A stretch of 64,000 nt of DNA, taken from IMG/VR virus record IMGVR_UViG_3300042473_001368. The stretch is one strand, 5' to 3'. Within the stretch, counting starts at the first letter, position 1. Each line of letters opens with the position of its first letter. Shown here piece after piece: positions 3,669-36,450 of the stretch. The stretch is from a virus. The notes under the pieces were generated by a model, which worked only from the letters and a program-made list of their open reading frames with translations, had not been told where the DNA came from and made no database searches. Made by a program: the position numbers and the translations under genes.

Positions 3669-5129
3669 TTAGAAGTACACTGATTGTGAGCTTGGCGTAA
3701 ACGCTTGACCTAGACCCTGAACAATAACAACATGGTAATAGAGGTTGGAGCCGAAGATGTTATCTACAACACCGTAACGAGTAAGCAAGCCTACGCGTGG
3801 TGCGAAGTCGTTCGGACCAATTGTTCTTTGAACCATGATAGGAATGTAAGGGCAATAGATGATACCTGTGTCATAGAATTCGCTTCCCTTGAAACCAAGA
3901 AGAGCGTATTCGATGGATGTGCTCGGATCTCCGTACCCTACGCTGCCGTAGAGTGAGGAATTCTGAACTTCAGTACGAGTATCGCGATATACCGAGAAAC
4001 GACCACCAACGGAACCTACTTTAGCAACACCTGTTGGTTGTGTAGCAACATCACCTTGAACTGGCACCCACTGGAATTCTGGGAGCATCTCAAGGATAGC
4101 GCATACACGAGGTGTAGCAACAATGAAGTTAGCAGCGCCACGACGGTTACGTGCAGCAATTCTGTTTGCTTCAATGATAAGTTTTTGGTAGAAGTCTCTA
4201 TTTCTCTCAACGAGCCAGCGGCCATCAGCAGAAGCAGGAGACCAGAACGAAACACCAGCACCCACGCCACCATTGATAGCAGCTTGGATCATGCGGATGA
4301 TCATTTCACGGTCGATCTCAGCTTGGATCTCATACGACATAGCGTTAGTGATCTCAGCATCGATATCGATACCGTTCATGTTCTTAAGGTCTTGTTCAAG
4401 TTCAACAGACCAGCGAGCGCCGAGACGACGTGTGCCAGCTTCAACTGCTGATTTCTCAAACTTAACTTCTACTTGAGGAATGTTACCAGTAATTTCAAAC
4501 GCAGACAAGATCTGAGCAACGCCAGTATCTGCTGCATTGAAAGAGAATCCGTTACCACCAGAAAGTCTTGTAGAAGACGAACCTGTGAAACGAGTATCTA
4601 GGAATTGATAACCGAGTTCACGATTACCTACTGTACCATTATAACCACCGTTAACGCCAGGGCCTGATCCGCCACCAGTCGCGCCACCGTCAATTCCAGA
4701 GCCAAGGCCTGTAGAATTGTAGGTATAACGAAGTGCCATAGCAAGACCAACTGGACCAGACATAGGTTGAACACCTACGATCTCGTTGGAGATTAGCTCA
4801 GGAAATGTACGACGAATCATCGGAATGAGGATCTTAGGAAGACGTGAATCTCCTGGAGCGTAGTTATCGCCCGAGTTGATTGTACCCGCACCTGGATTAT
4901 AGATGCCGTAGTTTGATGCACCACCACCGAAAGCACCGCCGTTACCAGCTGTGTTCGATTCGCACCATTGTTCTTGGTTCTCAAGAAGAATAGCTGTGTT
5001 CAAACGGGTATTGTCATCGCTAATGCCTCTTACCGAATCAGACTTAAAATTAAGAACTGGAGCCCACTTCTCAAGAAGTTGCTCTGCTCTGTTTCCATCG
5101 ATGAATGATTGTGTCGGTTTAATTTTCAT
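3669..5129 (-). CDS. gp23: Major capsid protein
   Basis: T4 gp23 motifs: LLEKWAPVL, AILLENQE, GVQPMSGPVGL, RRLGARWSVELEQDLK, EIQAEIDREMI, YCPYIP. Confidence 0.98.
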   Translation of the reverse strand: MKIKPTQSFIDGNRAEQLLEKWAPVLNFKSDSVRGISDDNTRLNTAILLENQEQWCESNTAGNGGAFGGGASNYGIYNPGAGTINSGDNYAPGDSRLPKILIPMIRRTFPELISNEIVGVQPMSGPVGLAMALRYTYNSTGLGSGIDGGATGGGSGPGVNGGYNGTVGNRELGYQFLDTRFTGSSSTRLSGGNGFSFNAADTGVAQILSAFEITGNIPQVEVKFEKSAVEAGTRRLGARWSVELEQDLKNMNGIDIDAEITNAMSYEIQAEIDREMIIRMIQAAINGGVGAGVSFWSPASADGRWLVERNRDFYQKLIIEANRIAARNRRGAANFIVATPRVCAILEMLPEFQWVPVQGDVATQPTGVAKVGSVGGRFSVYRDTRTEVQNSSLYGSVGYGDPSTSIEYALLGFKGSEFYDTGIIYCPYIPIMVQRTIGPNDFAPRVGLLTRYGVVDNIFGSNLYYHVVIVQGLGQAFTPSSQSVYF

Positions 5130-5199: not shown

Positions 5200-6066
5200 T
5201 TATCTATGGCGATTGAGTCGCTCAAGTTCAGTAACATAAGGGTTAGAAACTTTCTTCACTGCTGAATCAGATACATTCTCATTAAGAACTGGTCTGTCAG
5301 CCTTCACCTTTCTTGTTTCAAAAGCTTGTTCACGGATAACATTAAGTTGTTCGTTTTCTTGCTTTTTGAAAAGTCTCAATGTGTAATCGAAGTTCTCTTC
5401 GATAAACTTAGGTGTCTTATCACCTAGTACACGTTTTGTATATTCTTTTTGCTTGTCAGAAAGACCAGCTACCTTTTCTTCAAGAATAAGAGCTGCTTTT
5501 GTCTTTGTATAATGTTCTTTGAGCAAAGAATTTTCTTTTTCGAGTTTGTTAACTTTTTCGCTAAGAGTGTCGATTTGCTGCTTGCCATCAACAACAGCGC
5601 TTTGTACTGACTCAGCCATAAGTGCTGTGTCAACAGCTAGTACCTTGCGAAGATTTTCAAGAACTTTGGTAGCTGTTTTATTTTTTGTAGCTTCCATAAT
5701 TGCGTTCTTAGGCACCGCTTCGTCGATAAACTCTTCTAGATAGTTGGAAATAGATTCAACAAGAGTTGCTTTGAACTTAGTTGCTTCTTTGTTAAGAACT
5801 CTTTCATAACGTCTTACAACAGTCTTAAGTTTGCCAAAGTTATTCTTATCAATAGCTTCTACAACACGGTGAAGCTTATTAGTATGATCTTTATCAAGAG
5901 CTTTGATAAGCGTTTGAAGTTTAGCTGCATACAGATCGTCTTGAGCTGCAAGTGCAGATTCAACAGTAAGATCTAGCTTTTCTCTAAAGGCTTGCTCGAT
6001 AACTTGAATAGACTCTTCTGATAGAGTCTGTACAGCATCTTCGTTAAGTAGTGATTTAACTTTCAT
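5200..6066 (-). CDS. gp22: Prohead core scaffolding protein
   Basis: Coiled-coil acidic protein between gp21 and gp23; LVESISNYLEEFIDE motif. Confidence 0.9.
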   Translation of the reverse strand: MKVKSLLNEDAVQTLSEESIQVIEQAFREKLDLTVESALAAQDDLYAAKLQTLIKALDKDHTNKLHRVVEAIDKNNFGKLKTVVRRYERVLNKEATKFKATLVESISNYLEEFIDEAVPKNAIMEATKNKTATKVLENLRKVLAVDTALMAESVQSAVVDGKQQIDTLSEKVNKLEKENSLLKEHYTKTKAALILEEKVAGLSDKQKEYTKRVLGDKTPKFIEENFDYTLRLFKKQENEQLNVIREQAFETRKVKADRPVLNENVSDSAVKKVSNPYVTELERLNRHR

Positions 6067-6334: not shown

Positions 6335-6342
6335 TATTTATA
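6335..6342 (-). promoter_or_regulatory. T4 late promoter TATAAATA
   Basis: Exact consensus 8 nt upstream of ATG 6326. Confidence 0.85.
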
Positions 6343-6371
6343 CTACTTGTAACAATTTCTTTAAAAATATA

Positions 6372-7037
6372 TTAAATCTTCTTTAAAAAATTTAAGATAC
6401 GGTCTCTTAAAAACGCATCTCTTTCTTTTCTAGGTAATTTACGTATAGCATTTTCGAAGTTTTCGTAAATTTCTTCGTATTTGCCATTCTCTGCTACCAC
6501 CCATTGCTTAGATTCAAGAATACCATTAACAAAAGCAGACGGCGCACTAGGGTCAGCTACACAGTCAACAGCTACAAGCTTAAGATTTCTTACAGTGTTA
6601 TGACCTTGACCTTCTTCAAGTGTTCCGAGAGCACGAGATGACATACCTACTTTAACACCGTCATTGATAAGTGACTTAATAATAAGTCCGCATGGTGTAG
6701 AAAGCACTTTAGACTTGCCGTAAAAGATATTATCTTGCTCATATAGCTCAGTAATCATATGGCAAGCACGGCCAAGATCAACATCAGCTGTAGCAGGGTG
6801 GTTAAGTTCACCCATGGCTCTACCTGGTTTAATCATCTCTTCTGTATAACGTTGAACTTCGCGTTGAAGCTCTTCTCTTGGATACATGCGACGATTTTTA
6901 TTGACAGCGTTCGCTACCATGTAAGGACCTTTAATGTATAATGTGGATGGAGCGTTTCTATTAGCTTCTTCGAATACATATTGATATTGGTCCTCTGATT
7001 GAGGTTTCTCTACTAGCAAATTAAGCGTTAGTGCCAT
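6372..7037 (-). CDS. gp21: Prohead maturation protease
   Basis: IKGPYMVANAVNKNRRMYP, GELNHP, GMSSRALG, DCVADPSAPSAFVNGILE motifs. Confidence 0.97.
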   Translation of the reverse strand: MALTLNLLVEKPQSEDQYQYVFEEANRNAPSTLYIKGPYMVANAVNKNRRMYPREELQREVQRYTEEMIKPGRAMGELNHPATADVDLGRACHMITELYEQDNIFYGKSKVLSTPCGLIIKSLINDGVKVGMSSRALGTLEEGQGHNTVRNLKLVAVDCVADPSAPSAFVNGILESKQWVVAENGKYEEIYENFENAIRKLPRKERDAFLRDRILNFLKKI

Positions 7038-7043
7038 ATAGTA

Positions 7044-7051
7044 TATTTATA
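7044..7051 (-). promoter_or_regulatory. T4 late promoter TATAAATA
   Basis: Exact consensus 6 nt upstream of the gp21 ATG. Confidence 0.85.
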
Positions 7052-8658: not shown

Positions 8659-8668
8659 ATAATTTTAT

Positions 8669-10486: not shown

Positions 10487-10495
10487 TTGTTAAGA

Positions 10496-10503
10496 TATTT
10501 AGT
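10496..10503 (-). promoter_or_regulatory. Late promoter variant ACTAAATA overlapping the gp15 stop
   Basis: TAAATA core 9 nt upstream of the portal ATG. Confidence 0.65.
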
Positions 10504-11605
10504 CAACACTTATAACATATCCATTGCTAGTTGATGACCAACCTACAACATTTGATGCTATTATTGTAAAATTACCGTTTGCAGATAGCGTGCTTGTTGG
10601 TATATAGATCGTAGCTATGTTTGAATTTAACACGCTCGTGAATTGATCAACACCATACGCGCTAATAACCGGGTTATAGAAGGTACTTAACTGAGTATAA
10701 CCTGTGAAGAAATTAGGAGTGTTACTACTCAAGTAAAAGCTAGTGCTATACTCAAAGTTTTTGCCCCATACAATAAATTGATTATCTTTATTCTTCTTGA
10801 TATTGATTGGCGAAGTAACTGGTACTGTTGTACCTGATAATGTATAAAACAAATTTGTTATACTCGGTGAACCTGAGACAGTAACTACATCTGTTGTATC
10901 ATACGAACTTAGCGTCTGATAAGGGTTAATAAGTTTAAAGATTTGATCAGAACCTACAGTATGGAAGTTATTATTAACTCTATAAATTAAACCTTCTGGT
11001 TCTTGCTCTTGCTTGAACAACCATGTCTTGATTGTAAAGCTTGTGTCCGCTACACTTTGAAACTGATCTGAGTATGTTGTCTCGATAGGTGTTGATAGCG
11101 ATATATCTCCACTCCACAAGACTTCAGTTCTTATCTCTGTATTCGGCAAACCTAGCTCTGCAGGCACAAGCCACGATAAAATAATATACGGGTCTGCATA
11201 TGGTACAAAATTGCTCAAGATTTGATCCATATCGAGCATGTACTTTGCCAACACAGAGAAAGAAACATTGATATTGACTGGTACTGGTTGAAGCAGTTTA
11301 GATGATTTTAAGTTTCCGCCTTGTGTAGAGATAGGGAGATATGCAGGCTCTAGCTTATTAAATACTCGAGATTGATCTCGAGATATGCCTGTAATGTTAA
11401 TTGCAACAACAGGCAGAGTAATGTTTTGCGCTTTATTTACAATATCATACATTACGCGTTCTTTTGGTTTGAACACATAACGTACTTCTATTTTTTCTTG
11501 CTCAACACGACTCTTATTATATCTCGAAATAATACAATCGTCGAACGCAGCCACAAACTGCGTCATAATATCTTTTATCTCAAAAAAGAACGACTTGTTT
11601 TTCAC
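10499..11605 (-). CDS. gp15: Tail sheath stabiliser/terminator protein
   Basis: FVAAFDDCIISR, IEVRYVFKPKER, LPVVAINITGISRD, QILSNFVPY; GTG start 5 nt after ACTAAATA. Confidence 0.85.
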   Translation of the reverse strand: MKNKSFFFEIKDIMTQFVAAFDDCIISRYNKSRVEQEKIEVRYVFKPKERVMYDIVNKAQNITLPVVAINITGISRDQSRVFNKLEPAYLPISTQGGNLKSSKLLQPVPVNINVSFSVLAKYMLDMDQILSNFVPYADPYIILSWLVPAELGLPNTEIRTEVLWSGDISLSTPIETTYSDQFQSVADTSFTIKTWLFKQEQEPEGLIYRVNNNFHTVGSDQIFKLINPYQTLSSYDTTDVVTVSGSPSITNLFYTLSGTTVPVTSPINIKKNKDNQFIVWGKNFEYSTSFYLSSNTPNFFTGYTQLSTFYNPVISAYGVDQFTSVLNSNIATIYIPTSTLSANGNFTIIASNVVGWSSTSNGYVISVD

Positions 11606-20403: not shown

Positions 20404-21162
20404 TTAGACTTTAAGTGCTTTATCCCACAGAAGTAGGTGCAATCTTGGAGAGAAGTTAACATTAAGAGCTTTTGCATATTCAGCAACTGCAGGAGCTTTT
20501 TCGATATGTTCAGTTCGCGAACCACAGCATGGCATAAACCAAATACGATTCAAAGGACAGTTAATACCATTCTTGTCATTGACATATTTACGCCAAATCT
20601 CATCAAGATCTTCAGAGGTATTGATTACGAATTTAAATCCTGAGAAGTGATCGACATGCCACTTAAGTACTTCAGGCTTGTATGTCTTATCTTCAGGGTC
20701 TCCATTAGAAGTAAGCTTAGGAGATGTAGTAAATGTTGCCTCCCAACGATTAACCCATTCTTCATCAGGCATAATAGTCGCATTCGTTTCAAAATCGATA
20801 CGCGGAACAAATTCGTATCTTTCAGAGAAAGCCTGAACAAACTTCAAGAGCTGCTTTTGCGAAATTAAAGGTTCGCCGCCAGTTAATTTAAGAATTGCAT
20901 TAGCCTTTAGCTTCTCGATAAGGTTTTGCTTCTCATAAAGTTCAAAGATTTCATTGAATGTCATCTTATTCTTTATAGACCAAGAGATAAACGAGTCGCA
21001 GCCATGAGGTGAGTCAGCGCTCGCAAAATTTTTGCATGTAAGATTACACATAGACATTCTCATGAATACCGAAGGTTGACCTACATATTCACCCTCTCCC
21101 TCAATCGTGAAAAATACTAAATCATCACTCAAAAATAAAGTTTCTTTATCGCAATTAATCAT
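20404..21162 (-). CDS. queE: 7-carboxy-7-deazaguanine synthase (radical SAM)
   Basis: TIEGEGEYVGQPSVFMR, CNLTC-x11-CDS, LTGGEPL, FETNAT, SPKL, FSPRLHLLLW; start placed at ATG 21162 under an early promoter. Confidence 0.93.
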   Translation of the reverse strand: MINCDKETLFLSDDLVFFTIEGEGEYVGQPSVFMRMSMCNLTCKNFASADSPHGCDSFISWSIKNKMTFNEIFELYEKQNLIEKLKANAILKLTGGEPLISQKQLLKFVQAFSERYEFVPRIDFETNATIMPDEEWVNRWEATFTTSPKLTSNGDPEDKTYKPEVLKWHVDHFSGFKFVINTSEDLDEIWRKYVNDKNGINCPLNRIWFMPCCGSRTEHIEKAPAVAEYAKALNVNFSPRLHLLLWDKALKV

Positions 21163-21169
21163 ATAATTA

Positions 21170-21197
21170 ATGTTATAATAACTTTTAAAGAAATCAA
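21170..21197 (-). promoter_or_regulatory. Early promoter TTGATT-N16-TAACAT, 7 nt before the queE ATG
   Basis: Read directly. Confidence 0.65.
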
Positions 21198-21225
21198 CAA
21201 AATTATATAAAACCATTACACGTTA

Positions 21226-27031: not shown

Positions 27032-29539
27032 TTATTGTGCTGTTGCAGCTTTTAAGAATTTTGTTTTAAGCTCATCGATAAACTTAGGACTTAAAACAAA
27101 GCTTATTACTGACAAGTAAGGATTTTCATTATTATGTAATCTATTTTCTAGAGTCTTAATGAAACTGTCGATACGAGATTTCTCAGCGTTAATAGCGTTT
27201 TGTGTATCAGTTTTAGCTTTAGTATCTTGATCATCGATCTGAAATAGAGCTCTCTCAATATCTAACTTATATTCTTTAAGCGTAGACGTAAGAGCTGCTA
27301 CCATCTTCTTAGATTCTAAGAACTCAACTTCGCTAGCTGCATCACCGTAGAATACATCTAACATTTCGTCTAGAGTCTTAAACTTAGAGCCACGTGTTTC
27401 GATAGCATCAGTAAGCTTTTGCATTTGCTTATCAGTAAGAATAAAGATGTCAGCGTTTTTAAGAATATTATTCTTAAGCTCATTGTATAGACTCTTTCTA
27501 TATTCTTTCAATGCATCAACACCTGCCCATTGTTCAACTCTACGACGACCAAAGTCTTCGAGGTCTACTAATTTAGCAATAGCGCCTGTCTCCATATTTC
27601 TAATGATAGTACCTTCAATTTCTTTAGCACCTAAAGAAGATGGAATGCTTCTAATACTTGATAGTAAATTTCTCTTAACTAAGCTCTTAAGTCGCTCAAA
27701 CTCTTTTACAGCTTTAGCCTTTAGTATAGCTTCATCACCTGTTCTCTTTCTCGAAGCCATAGCAGCCATATTTTCTGTCGAACATACTCTAGTGATTTGC
27801 TTCTTAATAATATCCTTAATTTTAAGCTCTACAGGCTTCTTAGTATAAGCCTTCCAAGAACTCGTATCATTTATTGTTTCAGCAACTTGTGATAAGATAT
27901 CTTTACCTAGTTTTGAGGTAGTTATATCCTCACCTTTACTGGTTGTTTGTTTTACAGCACCAAAGAGAACTACAGCTCCATTACCAATAAGCTCCGGTGA
28001 GTATTCAATAACATTCATATGTGCTTTGCCGAACAACTCACCAAAAATTTGAATAGGTGCGTTTAGTCTTTCTTGTAGACTCATTAACACTTCCTTTATA
28101 TTGCTCTTATTAAGAGAATTTAAAAAGTTACCAAAACTCTCGAATACATCGTTTTCGAGATCCTTTGCTAATCGAAAGAATTCATTTGCATCTGTAATAG
28201 GGTTACCGCGTTTTGATTTAACATACAGATTATTGTTCTCATCTAAACCAAAAGATACATTTGAACCGTCGTACTTTTCAGATACCTCCCATGCATCGCT
28301 GCTAAACAGATTACAGAAATCTTTAGGTGTCATCTGATCGATGTGAGGGATAGCAACCATCTTTACAGCTTCACTTAAAATATCATCTGCTGTTTTAGTA
28401 AACAATCCGTCAATGTCCTTATTAGTTACATTGCCAAAGAATGGTAATAGGTAATTAAGAGCAGATTTCGCATCATCAAGAGACATCTGACCTACATTTC
28501 TACCTCTAGAAGGGTCAGGTATTTTTGTTTTAATATTCTTAATAAGGTTATCCCAGATCTCTTGTTTTCTTGTTTGATCGAATGTTGAAATTAGTTTAGC
28601 CATCTCAACAACATGCTTCATGTGTTCAGGTGTTTTAAATCCAAGGATGTTAGCAATAATTTGTAATTCGTTATAATCTACATTGATTGCTTCGCCGTCA
28701 GTAACAAATCTTTGAAGTTGATCGTATTGAACACCTCCGCTGCTATAACCTTTCTCCTTACCATCAACCATCCATGCAATTTTATATGCAAGACCGCTAC
28801 CACCTAATGTGTATCTTATCTTGAAAGTAACATCGCCTTTTTTACCATGTTTCTCAACAAACTTTTTGTATTGTTCGGTGTTTTGAATCAATGATCTAAG
28901 ATTCTCCATCTTCTTGTTATCAATCGGTGTTGATGAAGTTATACCTCTAATTAGAAGATCTCTAACTACACCTTTAACACCTGCAGCAATATCTGCAAAG
29001 CTAGAAAACTGTGTAAATTTAAGGAAATCTTCCTTCTCTGACATATCGACAATATCAATCTGAATGACCTGACTTGAATCACCAACAACTACAGCGACAT
29101 TAGCTTCTCCACCAGCTGCAGCAGCTGCATACTTACCTGTAAATTCGCTATTTAAGAATTTAGCTATATCAGATGCACTAACACCTTGCGTATAATGTAC
29201 ATCGAGATCGATGTCACCGAAATCCTTTTTATTTTGAAGTGCTTTGTCGATTATTTCTGGAGTTTCAATCTCATTAGGCTCGGGAGCCATAAGACCAGCC
29301 TTAATCGCAAACAATCTGCTACTGCCTAGAACATAAGACGGTTCTTTTGCATCAATAAATCTGTTTTTTCTTAAGATAGATAACAGACTTTGTACCTCGT
29401 CTAGCACTGTAGGTGACACTGTAGCGCGTGCATATTTTAGTTTCTGATTACCTGTTGCTGCAATTAAACCGTTAACTAAATTGTCAGCCGCTTGACCGCC
29501 CTCTAACAACATTCTAAAATATGTTTTAAAATTTATCAT
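27032..29539 (-). CDS. Nucleotidyltransferase (Pol beta fold) fused to an RNA/DNA ligase-like adenylation domain
   Basis: N-half LGSS, FGDIDLDV, IQIDIV. C-half SEKYDGSN (motif I), IFGELFG (III), EIEGTIIR (IV), AKLV (V). CATAAATA at 29549-29556. Confidence 0.7.
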   Translation of the reverse strand: MINFKTYFRMLLEGGQAADNLVNGLIAATGNQKLKYARATVSPTVLDEVQSLLSILRKNRFIDAKEPSYVLGSSRLFAIKAGLMAPEPNEIETPEIIDKALQNKKDFGDIDLDVHYTQGVSASDIAKFLNSEFTGKYAAAAAGGEANVAVVVGDSSQVIQIDIVDMSEKEDFLKFTQFSSFADIAAGVKGVVRDLLIRGITSSTPIDNKKMENLRSLIQNTEQYKKFVEKHGKKGDVTFKIRYTLGGSGLAYKIAWMVDGKEKGYSSGGVQYDQLQRFVTDGEAINVDYNELQIIANILGFKTPEHMKHVVEMAKLISTFDQTRKQEIWDNLIKNIKTKIPDPSRGRNVGQMSLDDAKSALNYLLPFFGNVTNKDIDGLFTKTADDILSEAVKMVAIPHIDQMTPKDFCNLFSSDAWEVSEKYDGSNVSFGLDENNNLYVKSKRGNPITDANEFFRLAKDLENDVFESFGNFLNSLNKSNIKEVLMSLQERLNAPIQIFGELFGKAHMNVIEYSPELIGNGAVVLFGAVKQTTSKGEDITTSKLGKDILSQVAETINDTSSWKAYTKKPVELKIKDIIKKQITRVCSTENMAAMASRKRTGDEAILKAKAVKEFERLKSLVKRNLLSSIRSIPSSLGAKEIEGTIIRNMETGAIAKLVDLEDFGRRRVEQWAGVDALKEYRKSLYNELKNNILKNADIFILTDKQMQKLTDAIETRGSKFKTLDEMLDVFYGDAASEVEFLESKKMVAALTSTLKEYKLDIERALFQIDDQDTKAKTDTQNAINAEKSRIDSFIKTLENRLHNNENPYLSVISFVLSPKFIDELKTKFLKAATAQ

Positions 29540-29557
29540 TATATTTGTTATTTATGT

Positions 29558-30760
29558 TTATACATCAGAAAGAAGCGAACCTACTTTTATATCTTTTGTA
29601 TCTACTTTACCCGCTGAAATACGCTGCTTTTTAAGATCTCTCTCAACATCCTGCGCTGACCTACGAACCATATTTGAATCTTTATCCACATTAGCTTGTA
29701 GTGAAAAGCCAAATCCATCAGTTCTTACTGCAGTTCGTATACTACTTGGAAGATTATTTATACGGTTCCACACATCTTCTATATTTGATAGATCTTTAAA
29801 ATTAATAAACTGCATCCAGATATTATTACCTCCTAGTTTATCATTAAATGCAATCATCGAATCAAATTTTTGCGCTTCTTTATACGCTAACAGTTGAACC
29901 ACGCCTGCTATTTTTACAATAATACTAAGTGATGGGAATTTACCCTTTCGTTTAAAGTAAATGTAATTTTCTACAACTTCGTTTTTTATATCTTCTGTAC
30001 TTATAAGAGCTTGGACCTCACTATTGTACTTGTCCGTGCCTGACAGCTTACCTACTGTATCAGCTACACCACCCAATAACTCCACGTCATTTTTGAAGTC
30101 ACCATCAGCCAGTTCGTTTAATGCTTCCACAGGATCAATCTTTCCACTCTTATACAGTCTTCCATTATAGCCCTTTAATTCTATATCTTCGCTACCTACT
30201 CGTAAGTCTCCTTTTTGCGGCTTGACACCGTTGCAGAAAAACGCTAAAAACAATTCGCCTGAACCAGCTCTACCCATTACAGCAGCAGCAGGACTAGTAG
30301 CCCACGCTTCTTTAAAATACTTATTATTTACATTTACATTATCGCCATAGATTTCTTCAATAAAACTATCAAGCATAATGCCTTCGTTATTTTCAATACA
30401 CTTGAGAATGAATTCTTCTCCTTTTTTTAGCGTATCTTCGTCTATAAGAAACCCACCGTCTTCTACATAGCTTTGAAACGTATTTAAATTATCAGAAGTA
30501 GCTCCATTATTTTTCTTAAGAACTGTTTGAATGATCTTTCTTGTTCCAATTGAATTAGTAGAACCGAGTTTGATATATTTTTTAAGTGTATCATTATAAA
30601 ACTCATCGTCAATATCACCTACTAATTCATAGTCATCACCTTTCTTCTGATATAATGAAACACTTTCATTATATCCTTTTACAAGGTGTCTGCTTTCTGC
30701 GAGGTGCCCGATAGGCGCTACAGTTTCTTTGTATAATTTGCTTAGTTCTCTATTAGACAT
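29558..30760 (-). CDS. Putative PD-(D/E)xK nuclease-fold protein
   Basis: GSGELFL...KGDL...IELKG spacing matches the E...D...ExK catalytic pattern. Confidence 0.5.
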   Translation of the reverse strand: MSNRELSKLYKETVAPIGHLAESRHLVKGYNESVSLYQKKGDDYELVGDIDDEFYNDTLKKYIKLGSTNSIGTRKIIQTVLKKNNGATSDNLNTFQSYVEDGGFLIDEDTLKKGEEFILKCIENNEGIMLDSFIEEIYGDNVNVNNKYFKEAWATSPAAAVMGRAGSGELFLAFFCNGVKPQKGDLRVGSEDIELKGYNGRLYKSGKIDPVEALNELADGDFKNDVELLGGVADTVGKLSGTDKYNSEVQALISTEDIKNEVVENYIYFKRKGKFPSLSIIVKIAGVVQLLAYKEAQKFDSMIAFNDKLGGNNIWMQFINFKDLSNIEDVWNRINNLPSSIRTAVRTDGFGFSLQANVDKDSNMVRRSAQDVERDLKKQRISAGKVDTKDIKVGSLLSDV

Positions 30761-31490
30761 CTTTTAAATCAATTTCTGGTTCTTCTGTTGGGGAGTCGAG
30801 TTCTTCCAGATTATCCTCAAGTTCGCTATCTTCAAGAGATTGATTTAGTGTTTTTGCAATAAAGTTCTCAATCTTTGTAGGCTCAACTTCGGTAAACTCA
30901 TCAACTACAGGTTTGAGCATCATAAGCTCTTCGTCAGTTGGTTTATGCGCTAATGCTTTAAGTATAAGTTCTTTATAAAGCGGGAAGATTTCTTCTAGAG
31001 ACAATTCTGATTTTTTTGCAGGAACTGGAGCTTCACCTTCTACCGGAGCAGTAGGTTGCTCTTGCGTATCTTGTTGAGGTTCTGTAGCATCTGCTGGTTG
31101 CTCAAGTAATACCATCAACTTATTAATAAACTTAATCGTCTTTGATTCTGTCTTAAGAGATGGTTGATTATTTTTAAGCTCTCTGCATAAGCTGTTATCA
31201 ATACATATAATATTAGTAATATCAGCAACTATTTTAGAGATAGGCACATTAACAGACTTTGATAGACGTTGTATATCGTTAGCAATAGTTTGCTGAGTCT
31301 CGCGACTGAACAGCGTTGGATTAAAAATAAAAGCATGAGTCAATATTTTGATCATATACTTTTGATTTTCAGGCATTACAGGTGCAGCAGCTGGTGGCTC
31401 AGCCATTGCAGCTGCGTTAGGATCTTCACCTGGCTCCTGTTCGTTTAACAGCTTAAAATATTGTTCGAAAATTTTATTTGTCTTTTTCAT
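30753..31490 (-). CDS. Acidic hypothetical protein with two-fold internal repeat
   Basis: LLNEQ-(P/A linker)-KYMIKILTHAFIFNPT and LLEQ-(P/Q linker)-LYKELILKALAHKPT. Confidence 0.65.
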   Translation of the reverse strand: MKKTNKIFEQYFKLLNEQEPGEDPNAAAMAEPPAAAPVMPENQKYMIKILTHAFIFNPTLFSRETQQTIANDIQRLSKSVNVPISKIVADITNIICIDNSLCRELKNNQPSLKTESKTIKFINKLMVLLEQPADATEPQQDTQEQPTAPVEGEAPVPAKKSELSLEEIFPLYKELILKALAHKPTDEELMMLKPVVDEFTEVEPTKIENFIAKTLNQSLEDSELEDNLEELDSPTEEPEIDLKDV

Positions 31491-31492
31491 AA

Positions 31493-31921
31493 TTATCGGG
31501 TTACATTGTAATTCATTGATCCTGAATCAAACTTACTAATAGCATTAGCTAAATTAAGTGTCATAGCGTTATACTTATCAATAGCTTTTGAAGCTACATC
31601 CTCTCTTTTTTTGACCGCTGCTTTAGCTTTACCTGCACTGCTGAACGAGTTAAATCTACCACCGAAATTTGGCTTTGAAGCAAGTCCTTCAACTCCTTTA
31701 TCAATTGAATATGAAATATCCTCAGCTTCTTCTTCATCTGTGTCATCGATAATAGCAAGCTTGATAGGTGTATTGTCTACAGTGATAGTAATCATATCAC
31801 CATCTGTACTTACATCAACGCTGTTAATTAAGTTTAAAAGCTCCGCAAGTTTATGTACCATCTCCTGTCTATCTGAATTTTGTGGATCTACTTGCTCTAG
31901 AATCTTGAGAAATTTACTCAT
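31493..31921 (-). CDS. Hypothetical late protein
   Basis: AATAAATA at 31927-31934, 5 nt upstream; begins MSKFLKILEQ. Confidence 0.7.
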   Translation of the reverse strand: MSKFLKILEQVDPQNSDRQEMVHKLAELLNLINSVDVSTDGDMITITVDNTPIKLAIIDDTDEEEAEDISYSIDKGVEGLASKPNFGGRFNSFSSAGKAKAAVKKREDVASKAIDKYNAMTLNLANAISKFDSGSMNYNVTR

Positions 31922-31929
31922 ATGTGTAT

Positions 31930-32376
31930 TTATTTCAACAGTGCAAGTTTATTCATACAATCAGTCAAAACATGTTCATCGACATACTTTAGATTATAGC
32001 TCTTAGCAAAGTCTTTTAGCTTTTTTATAAAATTTTTAGGTTTTAATACCTTACTAATACATAAAATTTTAAAAACTTTCTGAATATAAGGTAAAATATC
32101 CTTACTAACCAGTCTTTTTTTAAAAATATACTCTATTTGACAGTGAATATTTAACTTTTTTTGTTCTATATAATGAACTATAACGTTATGATAGAACAGA
32201 CTCTCAACATCTTTCACTGTTAGATCATAAGGTACACCTATTAAATCACACTGATAATACGTTTGTGTAATAGAATCATCAATTATTTTATTGAGATCAA
32301 TAGGTCTACAGTGTCGAAGGTCTGTGTTTTGGTCTTGAGACCCTAATGTTGATAATGCCATTGTAGTATTGTTCAT
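31930..32376 (-). CDS. Hypothetical protein (start uncertain)
   Basis: Fills the gap between genes; candidate starts overlap the upstream gene. Confidence 0.5.
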   Translation of the reverse strand: MNNTTMALSTLGSQDQNTDLRHCRPIDLNKIIDDSITQTYYQCDLIGVPYDLTVKDVESLFYHNVIVHYIEQKKLNIHCQIEYIFKKRLVSKDILPYIQKVFKILCISKVLKPKNFIKKLKDFAKSYNLKYVDEHVLTDCMNKLALLK

Positions 32377-32731
32377 TAAACAGAACCTCTCTTTCAATTT
32401 GCATTTTAATCTCACTGTAAGCTAAATCAAATTTTGATTCACACCACTTCAATATTTCAAATGTAAAGTTAGCTTTACCATGAGTAACAATATCTTCATT
32501 TAACTCTCTGCAAGATGATGTATAATCCTTCCAATCTGTCTCTTTTTCTTCGTGTCTTTTGTTCTTTTTACCTTTTAATGGCTTACGTTTAAGGATTGTT
32601 AGACATTGCTTTTTACCAATATACTTTTTACCTGTTAAATTATTTGTTATAAGGTAGATAAATCCATAAGGCTTATCAAGATTTTGATGTGACTCAAGTG
32701 AAAGTGACCAATGACCGAAATTTTTTTCCAT
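32306..32731 (-). CDS. GIY-YIG endonuclease, endonuclease II (DenA)-like
   Basis: YGFIYLITNNLTGKKYIGKKQ, WKDYTSS, FEIL, YYNGII; single short domain. Confidence 0.8.
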   Translation of the reverse strand: MEKNFGHWSLSLESHQNLDKPYGFIYLITNNLTGKKYIGKKQCLTILKRKPLKGKKNKRHEEKETDWKDYTSSCRELNEDIVTHGKANFTFEILKWCESKFDLAYSEIKMQIEREVLFNEQYYNGIINIRVSRPKHRPSTL

Positions 32732-32802
32732 ATACAGTTGACTTTTGAAACAATAGAGTAAATAAATCTGAGGATTAAGAGATAAAGAAAGACGACATAA
32801 TA

Positions 32803-33012
32803 TTATTTCGTTTTATTTTTATGTTTTCTTTTAGATTTACGTCCGACCTTACCTCTACGCGATGTTACACCTAATAATTTTGGTACGCGTGAATCGCCTG
32901 GTGCATAAAAATCTGATCCAGATATACTATCAGTTGATCCTGGTGATCCTCCAAGTGCATCAGATACAGTTATATCTTCGTAAAATTGCTTAAATGTTCT
33001 GTGCTTACTCAT
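32803..33012 (-). CDS. 69-aa late protein with capsid-like YAPGDSR motif and basic tail
   Basis: Start placed at ATG 33012, 8 nt after CATAAATA (33021-33028); MSKHRTFKQFYED...DFYAPGDSRVPKLLG...RKSKRKHKNKTK. Confidence 0.75.
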   Translation of the reverse strand: MSKHRTFKQFYEDITVSDALGGSPGSTDSISGSDFYAPGDSRVPKLLGVTSRRGKVGRKSKRKHKNKTK

Positions 33013-33056
33013 TATAATTTTATTTATGCAACAAATTATAGTATACAACACTACAG

Positions 33057-33084
33057 TTGATTAATGTGAAACAATAGTTATAAT
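33057..33084 (+). promoter_or_regulatory. Early promoter TTGATT-N16-TATAAT, 6 nt before the uvsY GTG
   Basis: Read directly. Confidence 0.85.
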
Positions 33085-33090
33085 TACATC

Positions 33091-33486
33091 GTGGATTTGA
33101 TTAAAAAATATAAAGAGGAGATTGGTAATGACCTCGTTATTAATGATTTTAACATTAAAGAAGTACAATTACGTTTACCGGCTCGTAAACATTTCTGGGC
33201 TGCTCGTCTAATTGATGCAAAAATTGAACTACATTCATTACAAAAACAGAAAAAAGCGCTTAAAAAACAAATAGTTAAACGTCTTCAACAGGAAGCACCT
33301 ATTAAATTAACGCAACAATCTGCAGAAATAGCTGCTGAATCATCAAATGAGATTGGTTCATTGAACGATCAGATCAAAGAATATGAGTTCATTATTGAGT
33401 ATCTTGATAAAGCTACATCAGTACTAAACCAAGTGGGTTGGGATATTAAAAATATCATTGAAATTCAAAAACTTGAACAGCTTTGA
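33091..33486 (+). CDS. uvsY: Recombination mediator
   Basis: Helical 131 aa upstream of uvsW; IEYLDK...GWDIKNIIE terminus. Confidence 0.82.
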   Translation: MDLIKKYKEEIGNDLVINDFNIKEVQLRLPARKHFWAARLIDAKIELHSLQKQKKALKKQIVKRLQQEAPIKLTQQSAEIAAESSNEIGSLNDQIKEYEFIIEYLDKATSVLNQVGWDIKNIIEIQKLEQL

Positions 33487-34913
33487 TAGAATTAGACTAC
33501 AATAAGAGTACACAGAAGCTTCTCATCAAAGGAGATAGTGATGTATTTTCGCAGATTCGTGAGTATTTTTCAGTACCAAACGAGGTACCAGCCTTTGTAA
33601 GACGTAGATATCGTCATATTGCTAGTAGAAAGTACATCATTACACCTACTGGACAGTGTGATCTAGGGTTATATTGGCAGATTAGACAGTTTCTTATTGC
33701 AAAATCTATCAATATACCTGTGATTTTGAGTGAAACACTACAAAAAGCCCTTGAAACACCTGGTATTGGTGAGGTTTTTACTGGTTTGACGTACGAATTA
33801 CGTGATTATCAGTATGAAACAGTGAAAAACTCACTAAAAGTAGGTAGAGGCCTGTGTATTCTTGGTACAGGTGCAGGAAAAACACTAACAACTGCGTCTT
33901 TAATTGAGAATTTCTACAGAAACTGTGCAAATCCAGTGACTTTTAAGTGTTTATTGGTAGTTCCCGACTTAGGACTGGTAAAACAGACGTATGATGAGTT
34001 AAATTTGTATGGAATCACCTATTCTACGACGAAATGGACAGGATCTGACACTCCAGACATGAATTCTAATGTAATTATATGTAATACTGGTGTATTATGT
34101 AGTAGATTCGACACAGAAGAGTGGGTAAAGTATGTAGATCTACTGGTTGTTGATGAAGTACACAAGGCTAAACACGGAAATGAGCTTAGTAAAATTGTTT
34201 CTAAGGTTAAAACACACAGAAAATTCGGTTTTACAGGTACACTACCACAAGATAAGCTCGAAGTTTGGTCATTATATGGTAAATTTGGACCTGTATTGTA
34301 TGAAAAACCGAGTGTAGAGCTTCGTGAAGAGAAGTTCTTAACAAATGTAGAGATAAATATACTAGGATTGCATTACAATGCACATGTTCCTAAGTTAACA
34401 GATAGTAAGTATAGAGATGAACTGGAATTTATTACTAATAACGAGCAAAGAAACACTTTATTATACAAGTTGTGTAATAAACTCACTAACAACACTCTTA
34501 TTCTTGTCAATCAGATTGTACACGGCGAGGTTTTATATGAGACCTTAAGTAAAGATACAACAAAAGCTGTCTTTTTTATATCTGGCTCAATGGAAGTAGC
34601 AGATAGAGATAAGATTAAACAGATAATGGAGACATCAGACAATGTTGTATGTATAGCTATCAGTGCTATCTTCTCGACAGGTGTCAATATTAAGAACATC
34701 CACAATATTATTTTTGCCAGTGGTGGTAAATCCTTTATTAGAACTGTACAATCTATAGGTCGTGGACTGAGATTACACGAAAGTAAGTCATTACTCAACA
34801 TATACGACATTCGAGATGAGTTGGAGTATGGTAGATCACATAGCGATAAGCGAAAAGATATATACAAGAAAGAACATATCAAGTTTATTGAAAAGAGTAT
34901 AAAATTAACTTGA
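33483..34913 (+). CDS. uvsW: SF2 DNA/RNA helicase
   Basis: LRDYQ, GTGAGKT, VDEVH, FGFTGT, FSTGVNIKNIHNIIF, QSIGRGLRLH. Confidence 0.95.
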   Translation: MIELDYNKSTQKLLIKGDSDVFSQIREYFSVPNEVPAFVRRRYRHIASRKYIITPTGQCDLGLYWQIRQFLIAKSINIPVILSETLQKALETPGIGEVFTGLTYELRDYQYETVKNSLKVGRGLCILGTGAGKTLTTASLIENFYRNCANPVTFKCLLVVPDLGLVKQTYDELNLYGITYSTTKWTGSDTPDMNSNVIICNTGVLCSRFDTEEWVKYVDLLVVDEVHKAKHGNELSKIVSKVKTHRKFGFTGTLPQDKLEVWSLYGKFGPVLYEKPSVELREEKFLTNVEINILGLHYNAHVPKLTDSKYRDELEFITNNEQRNTLLYKLCNKLTNNTLILVNQIVHGEVLYETLSKDTTKAVFFISGSMEVADRDKIKQIMETSDNVVCIAISAIFSTGVNIKNIHNIIFASGGKSFIRTVQSIGRGLRLHESKSLLNIYDIRDELEYGRSHSDKRKDIYKKEHIKFIEKSIKLT

Positions 34914-34937
34914 TTAAGCTATACACTAAAATATAAT
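34910..34937 (+). promoter_or_regulatory. Early promoter TTGATT-N16-TATAAT, 6 nt before the gp55 ATG
   Basis: Read directly. Confidence 0.85.
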
Positions 34938-34943
34938 AGGCGT

Positions 34944-35417
34944 ATGGCTAAAAATAAAGATAAGGAGAAGTACTATGTTGACCCAAAGGTGTTTAGTAGA
35001 TCTCTTAGAACATTTTACGAATCCGACAATCTTACTGATGATCTAGCTGAAAACATTAATAAGATCGCTTATGGTCTGAGTTATAGTAGCTCTTTTATCA
35101 ACTATACATACAAAGAAGAGATGATAGGCGATGCTCTTATTAAAATGTACTCAGCTCTTAAGCGAAAAAAGTATAGCTTTGATAAGCGAACTGAAAGAGG
35201 TGGTGAAGATGAGTGCAATCCATTCTCATATTTTACTACTATTGCATATAACGCATTTGTTAACCGTATTAAAAAAGAAAAACGTCATCATGAAGCGGAA
35301 AAGAATTACCGTGAACGAGTTTATGCTGAAATTATGAGTGATCCTAAGACATGTAACAACCTTGTTTATGTATCACCTACAAAAAGCGACGATGACGACT
35401 ACTACAATGAAGATTAA
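34944..35417 (+). CDS. gp55: Late-transcription sigma factor
   Basis: YYVD, IAYGLSY..SFINYTYKEEMIGDA, NPFSYFTTIAYNAFVNRIKKEK. Confidence 0.93.
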   Translation: MAKNKDKEKYYVDPKVFSRSLRTFYESDNLTDDLAENINKIAYGLSYSSSFINYTYKEEMIGDALIKMYSALKRKKYSFDKRTERGGEDECNPFSYFTTIAYNAFVNRIKKEKRHHEAEKNYRERVYAEIMSDPKTCNNLVYVSPTKSDDDDYYNED

Positions 35418-36450
35418 TCAGAGTAAAGTAGCAGTTATATCAGATCTGCATTTAGGTGTACACACAAATAGTCCAAGATGGCATGAAATATCTGTCGAAT
35501 GGGCTAATTGGCTTACAAAAGAATTAAAAGCAAAGGGTATAACTGATATTATTTTTTGCGGTGACTGGCATCACAATCGAAGTGAGATATCTGTCAATAC
35601 ACTGCAGGTATCTGCTGATATATTAGACATATTATCAGACTTTAGTATTGTTATACTGATTGGTAACCATGATATCTACTATAAACATAGGACAGACGTT
35701 CATTCTCTGTCTATTTTTAAGGGAAGAAGTAATATTACAGTTATAGACACTGTCAAAGTTGTAGAACAGTTCGGTCGCAAGCTGACTTTCTGTCCGTGGA
35801 ACACTTCTATATCTGATATACCTGAGTGCGATACAATTTTCGGTCATTTTGAGATCGAAAGCTTTAGTATGAACGGTTCTAAGGTGTGCGAAGACGGTTT
35901 AAAGATTAAAGATCTTATATCAAGAGCACCTTTAACTATATCAGGTCACTTTCATACACGTCACGAGAAAAAATATAAAAAGGGCACCATTTTATACTGC
36001 GGTAATCCATTCCAGATGGATTTTAGTGATGCTAATAATTCAAAAGGTTATTATGTACTTGATCTAAAGACAAATAATTATGAGTTTATTGAAAATACTA
36101 TTTCTCCTCGCTATGTTAAACTAACTCTTGGTGAAATAGCGTATAATAACTATACTGCTGATGATTTGAGGTCGCTTTTCAAGGGAAACTTTGTTAAAGT
36201 AAAAGTTGATAAGAGTATCACAGTAGATGACATGACGCTCTTAACACGTAAGCTATCATTATTGCAGCCTGAGCATCTTGCTACTGAGTATGATGTAATT
36301 ATGAGTGACGAGCCATCGTTTACTAATAAAGACTTATCAGGTATCAATATTGAAGAAGCTATCGAAGAGTTTATTAATATACTTGATGTAGAGAATAAAA
36401 AGGATATACTACAATATACAGTAGAGCTGTATAAACGTTGCTTAATATGA
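35407..36450 (+). CDS. gp47: Mre11-like recombination nuclease
   Basis: ISDLHLG, FCGDWHHNR, IGNHD, GHFE, SGHFH, YCGNP; start placed at ATG 35407. Confidence 0.93.
   Translation: MKINQSKVAVISDLHLGVHTNSPRWHEISVEWANWLTKELKAKGITDIIFCGDWHHNRSEISVNTLQVSADILDILSDFSIVILIGNHDIYYKHRTDVHSLSIFKGRSNITVIDTVKVVEQFGRKLTFCPWNTSISDIPECDTIFGHFEIESFSMNGSKVCEDGLKIKDLISRAPLTISGHFHTRHEKKYKKGTILYCGNPFQMDFSDANNSKGYYVLDLKTNNYEFIENTISPRYVKLTLGEIAYNNYTADDLRSLFKGNFVKVKVDKSITVDDMTLLTRKLSLLQPEHLATEYDVIMSDEPSFTNKDLSGINIEEAIEEFINILDVENKKDILQYTVELYKRCLI

What the first reader, a model, noticed from the sequence alone, without database searches (positions are those of the whole stretch)
32803..33028. 69-aa late micro-protein that copies a major-capsid motif
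Seen: SGSDFYAPGDSRVPKLLGVTSRR versus gp23 SGDNYAPGDSRLPKILIPMIRR. Codons differ at many synonymous positions (GAT TTT TAT GCA CCA GGC GAT TCA CGC GTA CCA AAA TTA TTA vs GAT AAC TAC GCT CCA GGA GAT TCA CGT CTT CCT AAG ATC CTC), so the similarity is kept at protein level. The protein also has a capsid-targeting-like start (TFKQFYE/D) and a basic tail. Inference: a molecular mimic of the MCP N-arm that fills arm-binding sites (for example at vertices or the portal) and tethers DNA, or a decoy for host sensors that detect capsid protein.
Basis: partly seen in the sequence, partly recalled or inferred. Interest (0 to 1): 0.8.

Follow-up and report, generated by a model that had tools for sequence, protein, structure and literature searches.

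The report
Small protein copying the capsid arm
A conserved 69-residue late protein of an uncultured freshwater T4-like phage carries a copy of the N-terminal arm of its own major capsid protein followed by a DNA-binding-type basic tail, and most likely uses that copy to enter or dock in the phage head.

Summary
Window 32803-33012 (- strand) encodes a 69-aa protein. Its residues 23-53 match residues 78-107 of the window's major capsid protein (MCP, 3669-5129, -): 16/31 identical, E 5e-7, mostly different codons.

It is a real gene:
- 189 clusters of homologues, nearly all 50-120 aa
- dN/dS 0.04-0.28
- fixed synteny next to uvsY
- a T4-type late-promoter box upstream

The family has three parts: a short helix ending in Glu (prohead-protease-site-like), a copy of the whole mature MCP N-arm, and a polybasic run.

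In several related genomes, MCP and micro-protein share lineage-specific residues outside the invariant core, again with different codons. This indicates protein-level concerted evolution.

The module is also found fused to a GNAT acetyltransferase, DUF5661 and ART- or ParB-like domains.

Cultured cyanophages carry non-homologous proteins of the same architecture that copy their own, different MCP arm. One of these (S-SM1 T4-GC426) was detected in purified virions.

Best reading (about 0.5): a prohead-incorporated, protease-processed internal head protein, addressed or anchored by MCP-arm mimicry, with the tail on DNA. A role as an arm surrogate at the portal is not excluded. The decoy idea is poorly supported. 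No experiment exists for this clade.

The parts
32803..33012 (-). Micro-protein gene, 69 codons plus stop (P0001)
   Evidence: 43 close homologues of 55-80 aa. 189 clusters at 50% identity. dN/dS 0.04-0.28.
33021..33028 (-). T4-type late-promoter-like box (CATAAATA), 8 nt before the ATG, no Shine-Dalgarno
   Evidence: The same kind of box sits 5-9 nt before the start codons of the protease, portal and gp13-like genes. TATAAATA-like boxes lie upstream of the micro-ORF in most relatives.
32977..33012 (-). Residues 1-12: short amphipathic N-terminal peptide ending in Phe-Tyr-Glu. Putative targeting peptide or propeptide, with predicted cleavage after Glu12.
   Evidence: Conserved across the family. 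The same hydrophobic-x-Glu followed by x-N-x-A-G..GG.FG occurs in MCPs of the clade at the position aligned with the T4 gp23 maturation site. Cleavage itself is inferred.
32854..32976 (-). Residues 13-53: copy of the mature MCP N-terminal arm (N-fist plus N-arm equivalent)
   Evidence: The corresponding MCP residues align with T4 gp23 residues in the 66-105 region.
32872..32922 (-). Residues 31-47: nearly invariant core of the family (S-G-S-D-F-Y-A-P-G-D-S-R-V-P-K-L-L)
   Evidence: Invariant or >=90% conserved columns in A1 and A2. The same positions are invariant in 30 MCPs of the clade.
32806..32859 (-). Residues 52-69: polybasic tail
   Evidence: Residues 54-69 hold 9 K/R and no D/E, pI 12. 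A K/R run is present in virtually all family members.
3669..5129 (-). Major capsid protein gene (gp23-like, P0002)
   Evidence: phrog_138 E 5e-81. T4 gp23 structures E 1e-30.
4809..4955 (-). MCP residues 59-107: the mature N-terminal arm that the micro-protein copies
6372..7037 (-). Prohead protease (gp21-like), the presumed processing enzyme
   Evidence: phrog_207 E 6e-57. A TATAAATA box lies upstream.
5200..6066 (-). Scaffold (gp22-like), candidate docking partner inside the prohead
   Evidence: phrog_237 E 1.4e-5. pI 8.7, so not acidic.
27032..31921 (-). Downstream same-strand genes, three of which have N-termini resembling the family's N-terminal peptide: o835 at 27032-29539, o245 at 30753-31490, o142 at 31493-31921. 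They are possible further head-addressed proteins.
   Evidence: This is circumstantial: the regex is not significantly enriched, but the N-termini are conserved in relatives.

Best explanation
The gene encodes a late, head-associated micro-protein built from three parts. (1) A 12-residue N-terminal helix ends in hydrophobic-x-Glu. (2) A stand-alone copy of the mature N-terminal arm of the phage's own MCP follows. This is the segment that in T4 lies inside the unexpanded prohead next to the scaffolding core and later becomes the N-arm and N-fist. (3) A polycationic tail ends the protein. Proposed mechanism: the arm copy makes the same contacts as the MCP arm, so the peptide is co-assembled into the prohead. 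The gp21-type protease cuts after Glu12, as it cuts the MCP a few residues before its own arm. The roughly 57-residue mature peptide stays in the head with its basic tail on the packaged DNA, giving charge neutralisation, tethering and possibly co-ejection. The same module serves as an address label for larger cargo such as GNAT, ART-like and ParB-like domains and DUF5661. Shown: gene reality, homology to the arm, covariation with the MCP, late-promoter box, fusions, and virion presence of an architectural analogue in a cyanophage. Inferred: head location in this clade, cleavage, DNA binding, and the identity of the docking partner (scaffold or shell).
For: The gene is real and under purifying selection. 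It sits in fixed synteny: gp47, gp55, uvsW and uvsY on one strand, then divergently the micro-ORF and a SegE-like gene, in 19-20 of 20 IMG/VR relatives. The late-promoter box is like those of the head genes and is conserved in relatives. Homology to the MCP arm shows in both search directions. In some members the basic run is an insert and the MCP-like sequence resumes after it. Lineage-specific residues outside the core are shared by the MCP and micro-protein of the same record: GNQFPSQND in G006 and G025, FNPPG in G010, QGGAL in G012. Of 21-23 identical residues in those pairs, only 6-9 use the same codon. Among all 40320 permutations of the 8 pairs, using upstream residues only, 0.15% reach the observed sum. 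In T4, gp23 residues 66-105 are inside the unexpanded head, probably on the scaffold, and later form the N-arm and N-fist (PMC9546572 and PMC9958956). The review states that how proteins are localised in the core is unknown. Fusions exist to GNAT (Pfam 5e-15), to DUF5661 (reaching 7e-16), and, as weaker leads, to ART-like and ParB_N-like domains. This recalls packaged T4 Alt. Independent analogues exist in cultured Kyanoviridae. Small or 180-aa proteins copy their own, different MCP arm and then carry a basic run (E 6e-8, 4e-5, 0.015). The S-SM1 member (SSM1_197, T4-GC426) was detected in purified virions with 17 peptide counts (PMC3037559 Table S8; GC number).
Against: There are no proteomic, structural or genetic data for this clade. 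The cyanophage analogues are not detectably homologous to this family: hhalign probability is 2% and the A2 profile finds nothing in 5 cultured T4-likes. The virion evidence is therefore by analogy only. The window's own pair shows the weakest similarity outside the core, ranking 8 of 8. The covariation test does not remove phylogenetic relatedness, since G006 and G025 are close kin. If targeting were the only role, one would expect the address to be cleaved off as the T4 CTS is. Here the arm copy stays joined to the tail. The scaffold is not acidic (pI 8.7), so a simple electrostatic tail-scaffold contact is not supported.
Confidence: 0.5

Rival explanations
1. Lattice surrogate. A low-copy, stand-alone N-arm/N-fist inserts into the mature shell where an MCP arm is missing. 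The obvious place is around the portal vertex, since no gp24-like vertex paralogue is found. Its basic tail points inward and couples shell or portal to DNA.
For: The copy covers the mature arm, not the cleaved delta region, and stays attached to the tail. This suggests a role after maturation. Covariation includes the part equivalent to the T4 N-fist, which contacts four neighbouring subunits. T4 Met98, in the arm, helps to anchor the portal. No second MCP paralogue is found in two 99-100% complete genomes.
Against: In T4 the N-fist ends up on the outer surface and its docking site is partly made by subunits of its own capsomer. Those subunits would also be missing at the portal. Enzyme fusions are easier to explain as cargo loading. 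The spectral count of the S-SM1 analogue (17) equals that of the 12-copy, three-times-larger portal (18), which hints at more than about 5 copies. Nothing was tested directly.
Confidence: 0.2
2. Assembly regulator. The peptide transiently competes with MCP arms for their docking sites on the scaffold or on neighbouring capsomers. It thereby times assembly or expansion or prevents aberrant polyheads, and it is not kept in the virion.
For: Arm mimicry and covariation fit a competitor. T4 N-terminal gp23-scaffold contacts influence head geometry.
Against: This does not explain the polybasic tail or the fusions to enzymes. The cyanophage analogue is found in virions.
Confidence: 0.1
3. Decoy for host immune sensors that recognise newly made MCP (Lit/Gol-type or CapRel-type). 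The peptide titrates the sensor.
For: A decoy would have to track the MCP sequence and be made late, as observed. The arm's C-terminal end abuts the region known from T4 as the Gol peptide (own knowledge, not tested).
Against: The copy stops before most of the Gol-equivalent segment. Nothing links the clade's unknown hosts to such sensors. The protease-site-like N-terminus, the basic tail, the enzyme fusions and the virion presence of the analogue all go unexplained.
Confidence: 0.07
4. Functionless remnant of a partial MCP duplication, kept similar by gene conversion.
For: It is a partial paralogue of the MCP 5' region.
Against: dN/dS is 0.04-0.28. There are 189 clusters of stable length and architecture. 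The core is more conserved than in some MCPs. Synonymous sites between the MCP and the copy are saturated, so there has been no recent conversion.
Confidence: 0.02

Closest known systems
T4 internal proteins IPI, IPII and IPIII and Alt, with the ~10-aa capsid targeting sequence (CTS), processed by gp21
   Same: These are late, small, basic (or enzyme) proteins addressed to the prohead core by a short N-terminal peptide. They are cut by the prohead protease, kept with the DNA and injected (PMC9958956). The window protein has a comparable N-terminal helix ending in Glu, a basic body and enzyme-fused relatives.
   Different: There is no sequence similarity and no Pfam or PHROG hit. T4 IPs carry no copy of the gp23 arm. 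Here the presumed address remains in the mature product. Resemblance to the T4 CTS sequence itself rests on my memory and was not tested.
Cyanophage proteins phrog_3286 (e.g. SynMITS9220M01_161, SSM2_167) and phrog_696 / T4-GC426 (S-SM1 SSM1_197, S-RIM8 YP_007518268)
   Same: The architecture is the same: a short N-terminal peptide, a copy of the phage's own MCP mature arm, then a basic run. T4-GC426 is a virion protein by mass spectrometry.
   Different: They are not detectably homologous to the window family. They copy a different arm sequence. They lie next to the primase gene rather than uvsY. phrog_696 has an extra C-terminal domain of about 130 aa.
The N-arm and N-fist of T4-type MCP gp23
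   Same: The micro-protein's central 40 residues are homologous to this segment of its own MCP.
   Different: It lacks the whole HK97-fold body, so it is not an MCP. RefSeq's label 'major head protein' for the cyanophage analogues appears to be an artefact of this partial similarity.
Phage P1 DarA-Hdf
   Same: These are protease-processed proteins anchored on the inner capsid surface, with a positively charged face on the DNA, released with the DNA (PMC12810830).
   Different: They are large folded proteins, with no mimicry of the MCP arm and no sequence relation.
gp24 vertex protein of T4
   Same: It is an MCP paralogue with a specialised lattice role.
   Different: gp24 is a full-length paralogue. 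None is detectable in complete genomes of this clade. The micro-protein copies only the arm.

Membership tests
T4-type major capsid protein (gp23; phrog_138 / Pfam Gp23) | HK97-fold body with profile match over the whole protein | tested here: not met
   P0001 has no Pfam or PHROG hit. Similarity is limited to MCP residues ~53-110.
T4 CTS-bearing internal head proteins (IPs, Alt) | Short N-terminal targeting peptide ending in a gp21 site (hydrophobic-x-Glu) | tested here: inconclusive
   Phe-Tyr-Glu at residues 10-12. [LIVFY]-x-E is conserved in the family and matches the MCP context. There is no cleavage data.
T4 CTS-bearing internal head proteins (IPs, Alt) | Sequence homology to IPI, IPII or IPIII | tested here: not met
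   No PHROG or Pfam family and no tblastn match in 50,697 phage records.
T4 CTS-bearing internal head proteins (IPs, Alt) | Presence inside the mature head and processing by the prohead protease | not testable with these tools
   The only evidence is indirect: the architectural analogue T4-GC426 is in S-SM1 virions.
Cyanophage arm-copy proteins (phrog_3286 / phrog_696) | Profile match to the family | tested here: not met
   0 PHROG families for P0001 and P0133. hhalign probability 2%.
Cyanophage arm-copy proteins (phrog_3286 / phrog_696) | Architecture: N-terminal peptide, copy of own MCP arm, basic run | tested here: met
New family defined here (A1/A2) | Core [ST]-D-aromatic-Y-A-P-G-D-x-R-x-P preceded by a Gly-rich stretch and followed by a K/R run, length 50-120 aa | tested here: met
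Gol-type peptide of gp23 (Lit activator) | Covers the MCP segment that follows the Arg-Arg and runs through G-V-Q-P-M | tested here: not met
   The copy ends at the Arg-Arg, and a few residues later in some relatives. The Gol limits are from my own knowledge.

The most novel reading that the evidence does not exclude
Copying the MCP's own mature N-terminal arm is a general, co-evolving 'address code' of aquatic T4-like phages. Any protein carrying the arm copy plus a basic run is loaded into the head. The stand-alone micro-protein, or enzymes such as GNAT or ADP-ribosyltransferase-like domains, then travels with the DNA into the host. This would answer the open question of how proteins are localised in the T4-type prohead core, and it would give a portable packaging tag.
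Probability: 0.35. Interest if true: 0.85.

Novelty: new variant of a known kind. Interest (0 to 1): 0.7.

Why it matters
The recent T4 head review states that how proteins are recruited into the scaffolding core of T4-type proheads is still unknown. This family suggests a concrete and testable rule: mimic the MCP arm that lines the prohead interior. The rule appears in at least two deeply diverged lineages. One of them contains cultured cyanophages with published virion proteomes, so experiments are possible now. The family is large (189 clusters), abundant in lake metagenomes from 17 listed studies, unnamed in Pfam and PHROGs, and sometimes mislabelled 'major head protein'. If the module is an address tag, it predicts which unknown phage proteins are injected effectors. 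It could also serve for cargo loading into T4-like capsids.

Tried and rejected
- Complex prediction of MCP(108-486) with micro(13-69), using my own alignments, gave no verdict (score 0.00). It is not evidence either way.
- Sequencing runs: no RNA holder is listed. One run guessed to be RNA holds low-depth contigs of a relative across the locus. It is not usable as expression evidence.
- tblastn of P0001 and P0161 against 50,697 phage records found no match. P0185 matched only through its DUF5661 part.
- DNA search of 32000-34000 against phages found no match.
- The A2 profile in five cultured T4-like genomes gave no hit at E<=1.
- The PDB profile search gave no hit.
I replaced it with a degenerate DNA pattern.
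- The idea that the basic tail binds an acidic scaffold was dropped, because the scaffold pI is 8.7.
- A search for a gp24-like second MCP paralogue in complete relatives found none.
- Homology between the window family and the cyanophage arm-copy proteins was not detectable.
- A shared N-terminal peptide in other window ORFs gave 2 regex hits in 137 N-termini against 3 in 646 internal windows. This is suggestive only.
- No whole genome is held for the window, and there are no earlier findings of this scan.
I redid it with regex extraction.

Full report
**1. What is in the window**

The window is part of a T4-like phage genome at 36% G+C. It holds these head and replication genes:
- portal, 8669-10486
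- gp13/gp14-like genes
- prohead protease, 6372-7037
- scaffold, 5200-6066
- MCP, 3669-5129
- uvsY, uvsW, gp55 and gp47/46-like genes

The MCP is only about 32% identical to the nearest cultured phages, which are T4-like cyanophages. The DNA has no match among 50,697 phage records. The same sequence occurs in lake-water metagenomes from 17 listed studies.

The finding is an ORF on the minus strand. Its ATG is at 33012, its stop at 32803-32805, and it encodes 69 aa.

**2.

BLASTP of the 69-aa protein against the MCP gives 16/31 identities at E 5e-7, covering micro residues 23-53 and MCP residues 78-107.

The similarity is reproduced in other genomes:
- The window MCP used as query picks out the micro-ORFs of relatives, at E down to 8e-12.
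- A profile of 90 micro-proteins finds the MCP N-region in 7 of 7 records of the clade, at E from 5e-9 to 1e-13.

**3. It is a real, conserved gene**
- 43 close homologues of 55-80 aa exist.
- A profile search of 1.84 billion representatives gives 189 clusters at E<=1e-3, nearly all 50-120 aa.
- Pairwise dN/dS is 0.04-0.28.
- In 20 IMG/VR relatives the gene always sits divergently next to uvsY. In 19 of them a 141-aa SegE-like GIY-YIG gene follows it, even where the neighbouring proteins are only 35-45% identical.
- Eight nucleotides before the ATG lies CATAAATA. Boxes of the type xTAAATA sit 5-9 nt before the start codons of the protease, portal and gp13-like genes of the window. TATAAATA-like boxes precede the micro-ORF in most relatives.

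The gene is therefore very probably late. This rests on sequence only.

**4. Anatomy of the family**
- (a) 12-20 N-terminal residues form an amphipathic helix that ends in [LIVFY]-x-Glu.
- (b) A Gly-rich stretch follows, then a nearly invariant core of the type [ST]-D-aromatic-Y-A-P-G-D-x-R-x-P-K.
- (c) A short stretch ends in Arg or Arg-Arg.
- (d) A K/R run closes the protein.

In a subset the K/R run is an insertion. After it the sequence resumes with the residues that follow the arm in the MCP.

In 30 MCPs of the clade the same core positions are invariant. HMMER aligns this part of the MCP with T4 gp23 residues lying between the maturation site (after residue 65) and residue about 105.

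The micro-protein is thus a copy of the whole mature N-terminal arm. It is preceded by a short peptide whose end resembles the MCP's own predicted maturation site.

**5. What this MCP segment does in T4**

In T4 this segment is disordered and lies inside the unexpanded prohead, probably in contact with the scaffolding core. On expansion it is externalised and becomes the extended N-arm and the 25-residue N-fist, which touches four neighbouring subunits (PMC9546572; PMC9958956). Met98 in the arm helps to anchor the portal (PMC7136217).

**6. Covariation**

I obtained eight same-record MCP/micro pairs. Outside the invariant core, MCP and micro-protein of the same genome share lineage-specific residues:
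- GNQFPSQND in two related records
- an S-I-G..F-N-P-P-G stretch in another
- S-P-P in another
- Q-G-G-A-L in a 99% complete genome, where the module is fused to another domain

In these pairs 21-23 of 34 residues are identical, but only 6-9 of the identical residues use the same codon. Recent gene conversion is therefore excluded, and the likeness is maintained at protein level.

I scored only the 32 residues upstream of the core. Own-genome pairs sum to 496, against 322 +/- 57 over all 40320 permutations, and 0.15% of permutations reach the observed value.

Two caveats apply. Two of the records are close kin, so the test does not remove phylogeny. The window's own pair is the least similar outside the core.

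**7. Fusions**

The module also occurs inside larger proteins:
- At the C-terminus of a GNAT acetyltransferase (Pfam E 5e-15), where the junction has the same Glu-then-Met-Thr pattern.
- After or before DUF5661.
- In front of domains that the language-model atlas places near ADP-ribosyltransferases (score 0.87-0.89, a lead only) and near ParB_N (0.93, a lead only).
- One member has a sub-threshold ART-PolyVal hit.

These domain types fit proteins delivered with the DNA, as with T4 Alt. That interpretation is my own inference.

**8. An independent parallel in cultured phages**

Cyanophage MCP arms lack the Y-A-P-G-D core, and the family profile finds nothing in five cultured T4-like genomes. 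Searching cyanophage genomes with a cyanophage MCP arm nevertheless revealed a 65-aa ORF in SynMITS9220M01. It has a short N-terminal helix ending in Glu-Glu, then a copy of that phage's own arm, then a basic run.

| Phage | Arm-copy protein | Match to own MCP |
|---|---|---|
| SynMITS9220M01 | SynMITS9220M01_161, 65 aa | 20/35 identities, E 6e-8 |
| S-SM2 | SSM2_167, 62 aa | E 0.015 |
| S-SM1 | SSM1_197, 182 aa | E 4e-5 |
| S-RIM8 | YP_007518268, 177 aa | shared stretch seen by eye |

These proteins belong to phrog_3286 (unknown function) and phrog_696 (labelled 'major head protein'). SSM1_197 is T4-GC426. That cluster was detected in purified S-SM1 virions with 17 peptide counts (Sullivan et al. 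2010, PMC3037559, Table S8).

The cyanophage proteins are not detectably homologous to the window family: hhalign probability is 2%. The parallel is one of architecture. It could reflect very old common descent blurred by tracking of the MCP, or it could be convergence.

**9. Interpretation**

The best-supported reading is a late protein that is built into the head because it carries the MCP's own arm. It would be trimmed by the prohead protease after Glu12, and its polycationic tail would sit on the packaged DNA. Stand-alone, it would act like a small internal protein. Fused, the module would load cargo. I put this at about 0.5.

Within this reading the docking partner remains open. It could be the scaffold or core inside the prohead, as for the MCP arm before expansion. 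It could also be the shell itself.

It gains from two points: the copy is of the mature arm and stays joined to the tail, and no gp24-like paralogue exists in complete relatives.

The remaining rivals are:
- A transient assembly regulator (0.1).
- A decoy for capsid sensors (0.07).
- A functionless remnant (0.02). The conservation data argue strongly against this one.

**10. Limits**

Nothing here shows expression, cleavage, location or DNA binding for this clade. The complex prediction gave no verdict and no reliable RNA data exist. The resemblance of the N-terminal peptide to the T4 CTS sequence rests on my memory of that sequence. The existence and role of the CTS are from the review.

**11. 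Novelty**

Internal head proteins with targeting peptides are known (T4 IPs and Alt, P1 Dar proteins). I found no description of an address or anchor that is a co-evolving copy of the MCP's own arm. The family has no Pfam or PHROG entry. I rate it a new variant of a known kind, with interest 0.7.

Noticed in passing
window 32306-32731 (-): A 141-aa SegE-type GIY-YIG domain protein (Pfam PF19835, E 2.5e-30) lies directly downstream of the micro-ORF in 19 of 20 relatives. It is 48-86% identical, more conserved than uvsY (34-84%). That is odd for a homing endonuclease. It has no DNA-binding domain and looks like a fixed partner gene.
   Followed up: partly
window 6335-7044, 8659-8680, 10487-10510, 29540-29560, 33013-33028: Late-type boxes (xTAAATA) lie only 5-9 nt before the start codons of several head genes, with no Shine-Dalgarno sequence. 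This suggests leaderless or near-leaderless late mRNAs in this phage.
   Followed up: partly
window 27032-29539 (-), 30753-31490 (-), 31493-31921 (-): Three proteins have N-termini resembling the micro-protein family's N-terminal peptide, and these N-termini are conserved in relatives. They are an 835-aa protein with an RNA-ligase domain and two acidic proteins (pI 4.5 and 4.8) of unknown function. They may be further head-addressed proteins.
   Followed up: partly
G021 (record of L079) 70002-70130 (-): A 90-aa open frame in a complete 207-kb relative weakly matches MCP residues 12-55, the part removed at maturation (E 0.017). It may be chance or another partial MCP copy.
   Followed up: no
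Supplement of PMC3037559 (Aeromonas phage Aeh1, Aeh1p187): A 140-aa hypothetical protein of Aeh1 contains a stretch closely resembling the gp23 segment that follows the arm (through G-V-Q-P-M, the Gol region of T4). Partial MCP N-region copies may be more widespread among T4-like phages.
   Followed up: no
L169 1525-2058 (S-RIM8 YP_007518268) and the S-SM1 homologue: RefSeq labels these 177-182-aa proteins 'major head protein' (phrog_696). They share only the arm with the true MCP, so the label is probably an annotation artefact.
   Followed up: yes
L149/L152 (G012): The MCP of a 99% complete 208-kb relative is 649 aa, about 160 aa longer than the others. The module of that genome is fused to a GNAT acetyltransferase instead of standing alone.
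   Followed up: partly
window 20404-21216 (-): A QueE-like radical-SAM protein (phrog_2076, E 2e-40) hints at 7-deazaguanine modification of the phage DNA.
   Followed up: no
window 31500-35500: Near-identical DNA is present in lake-water, freshwater, aquatic and one wastewater metagenome from 17 listed studies. The phage is a widespread freshwater type with no cultured relative.
   Followed up: partly
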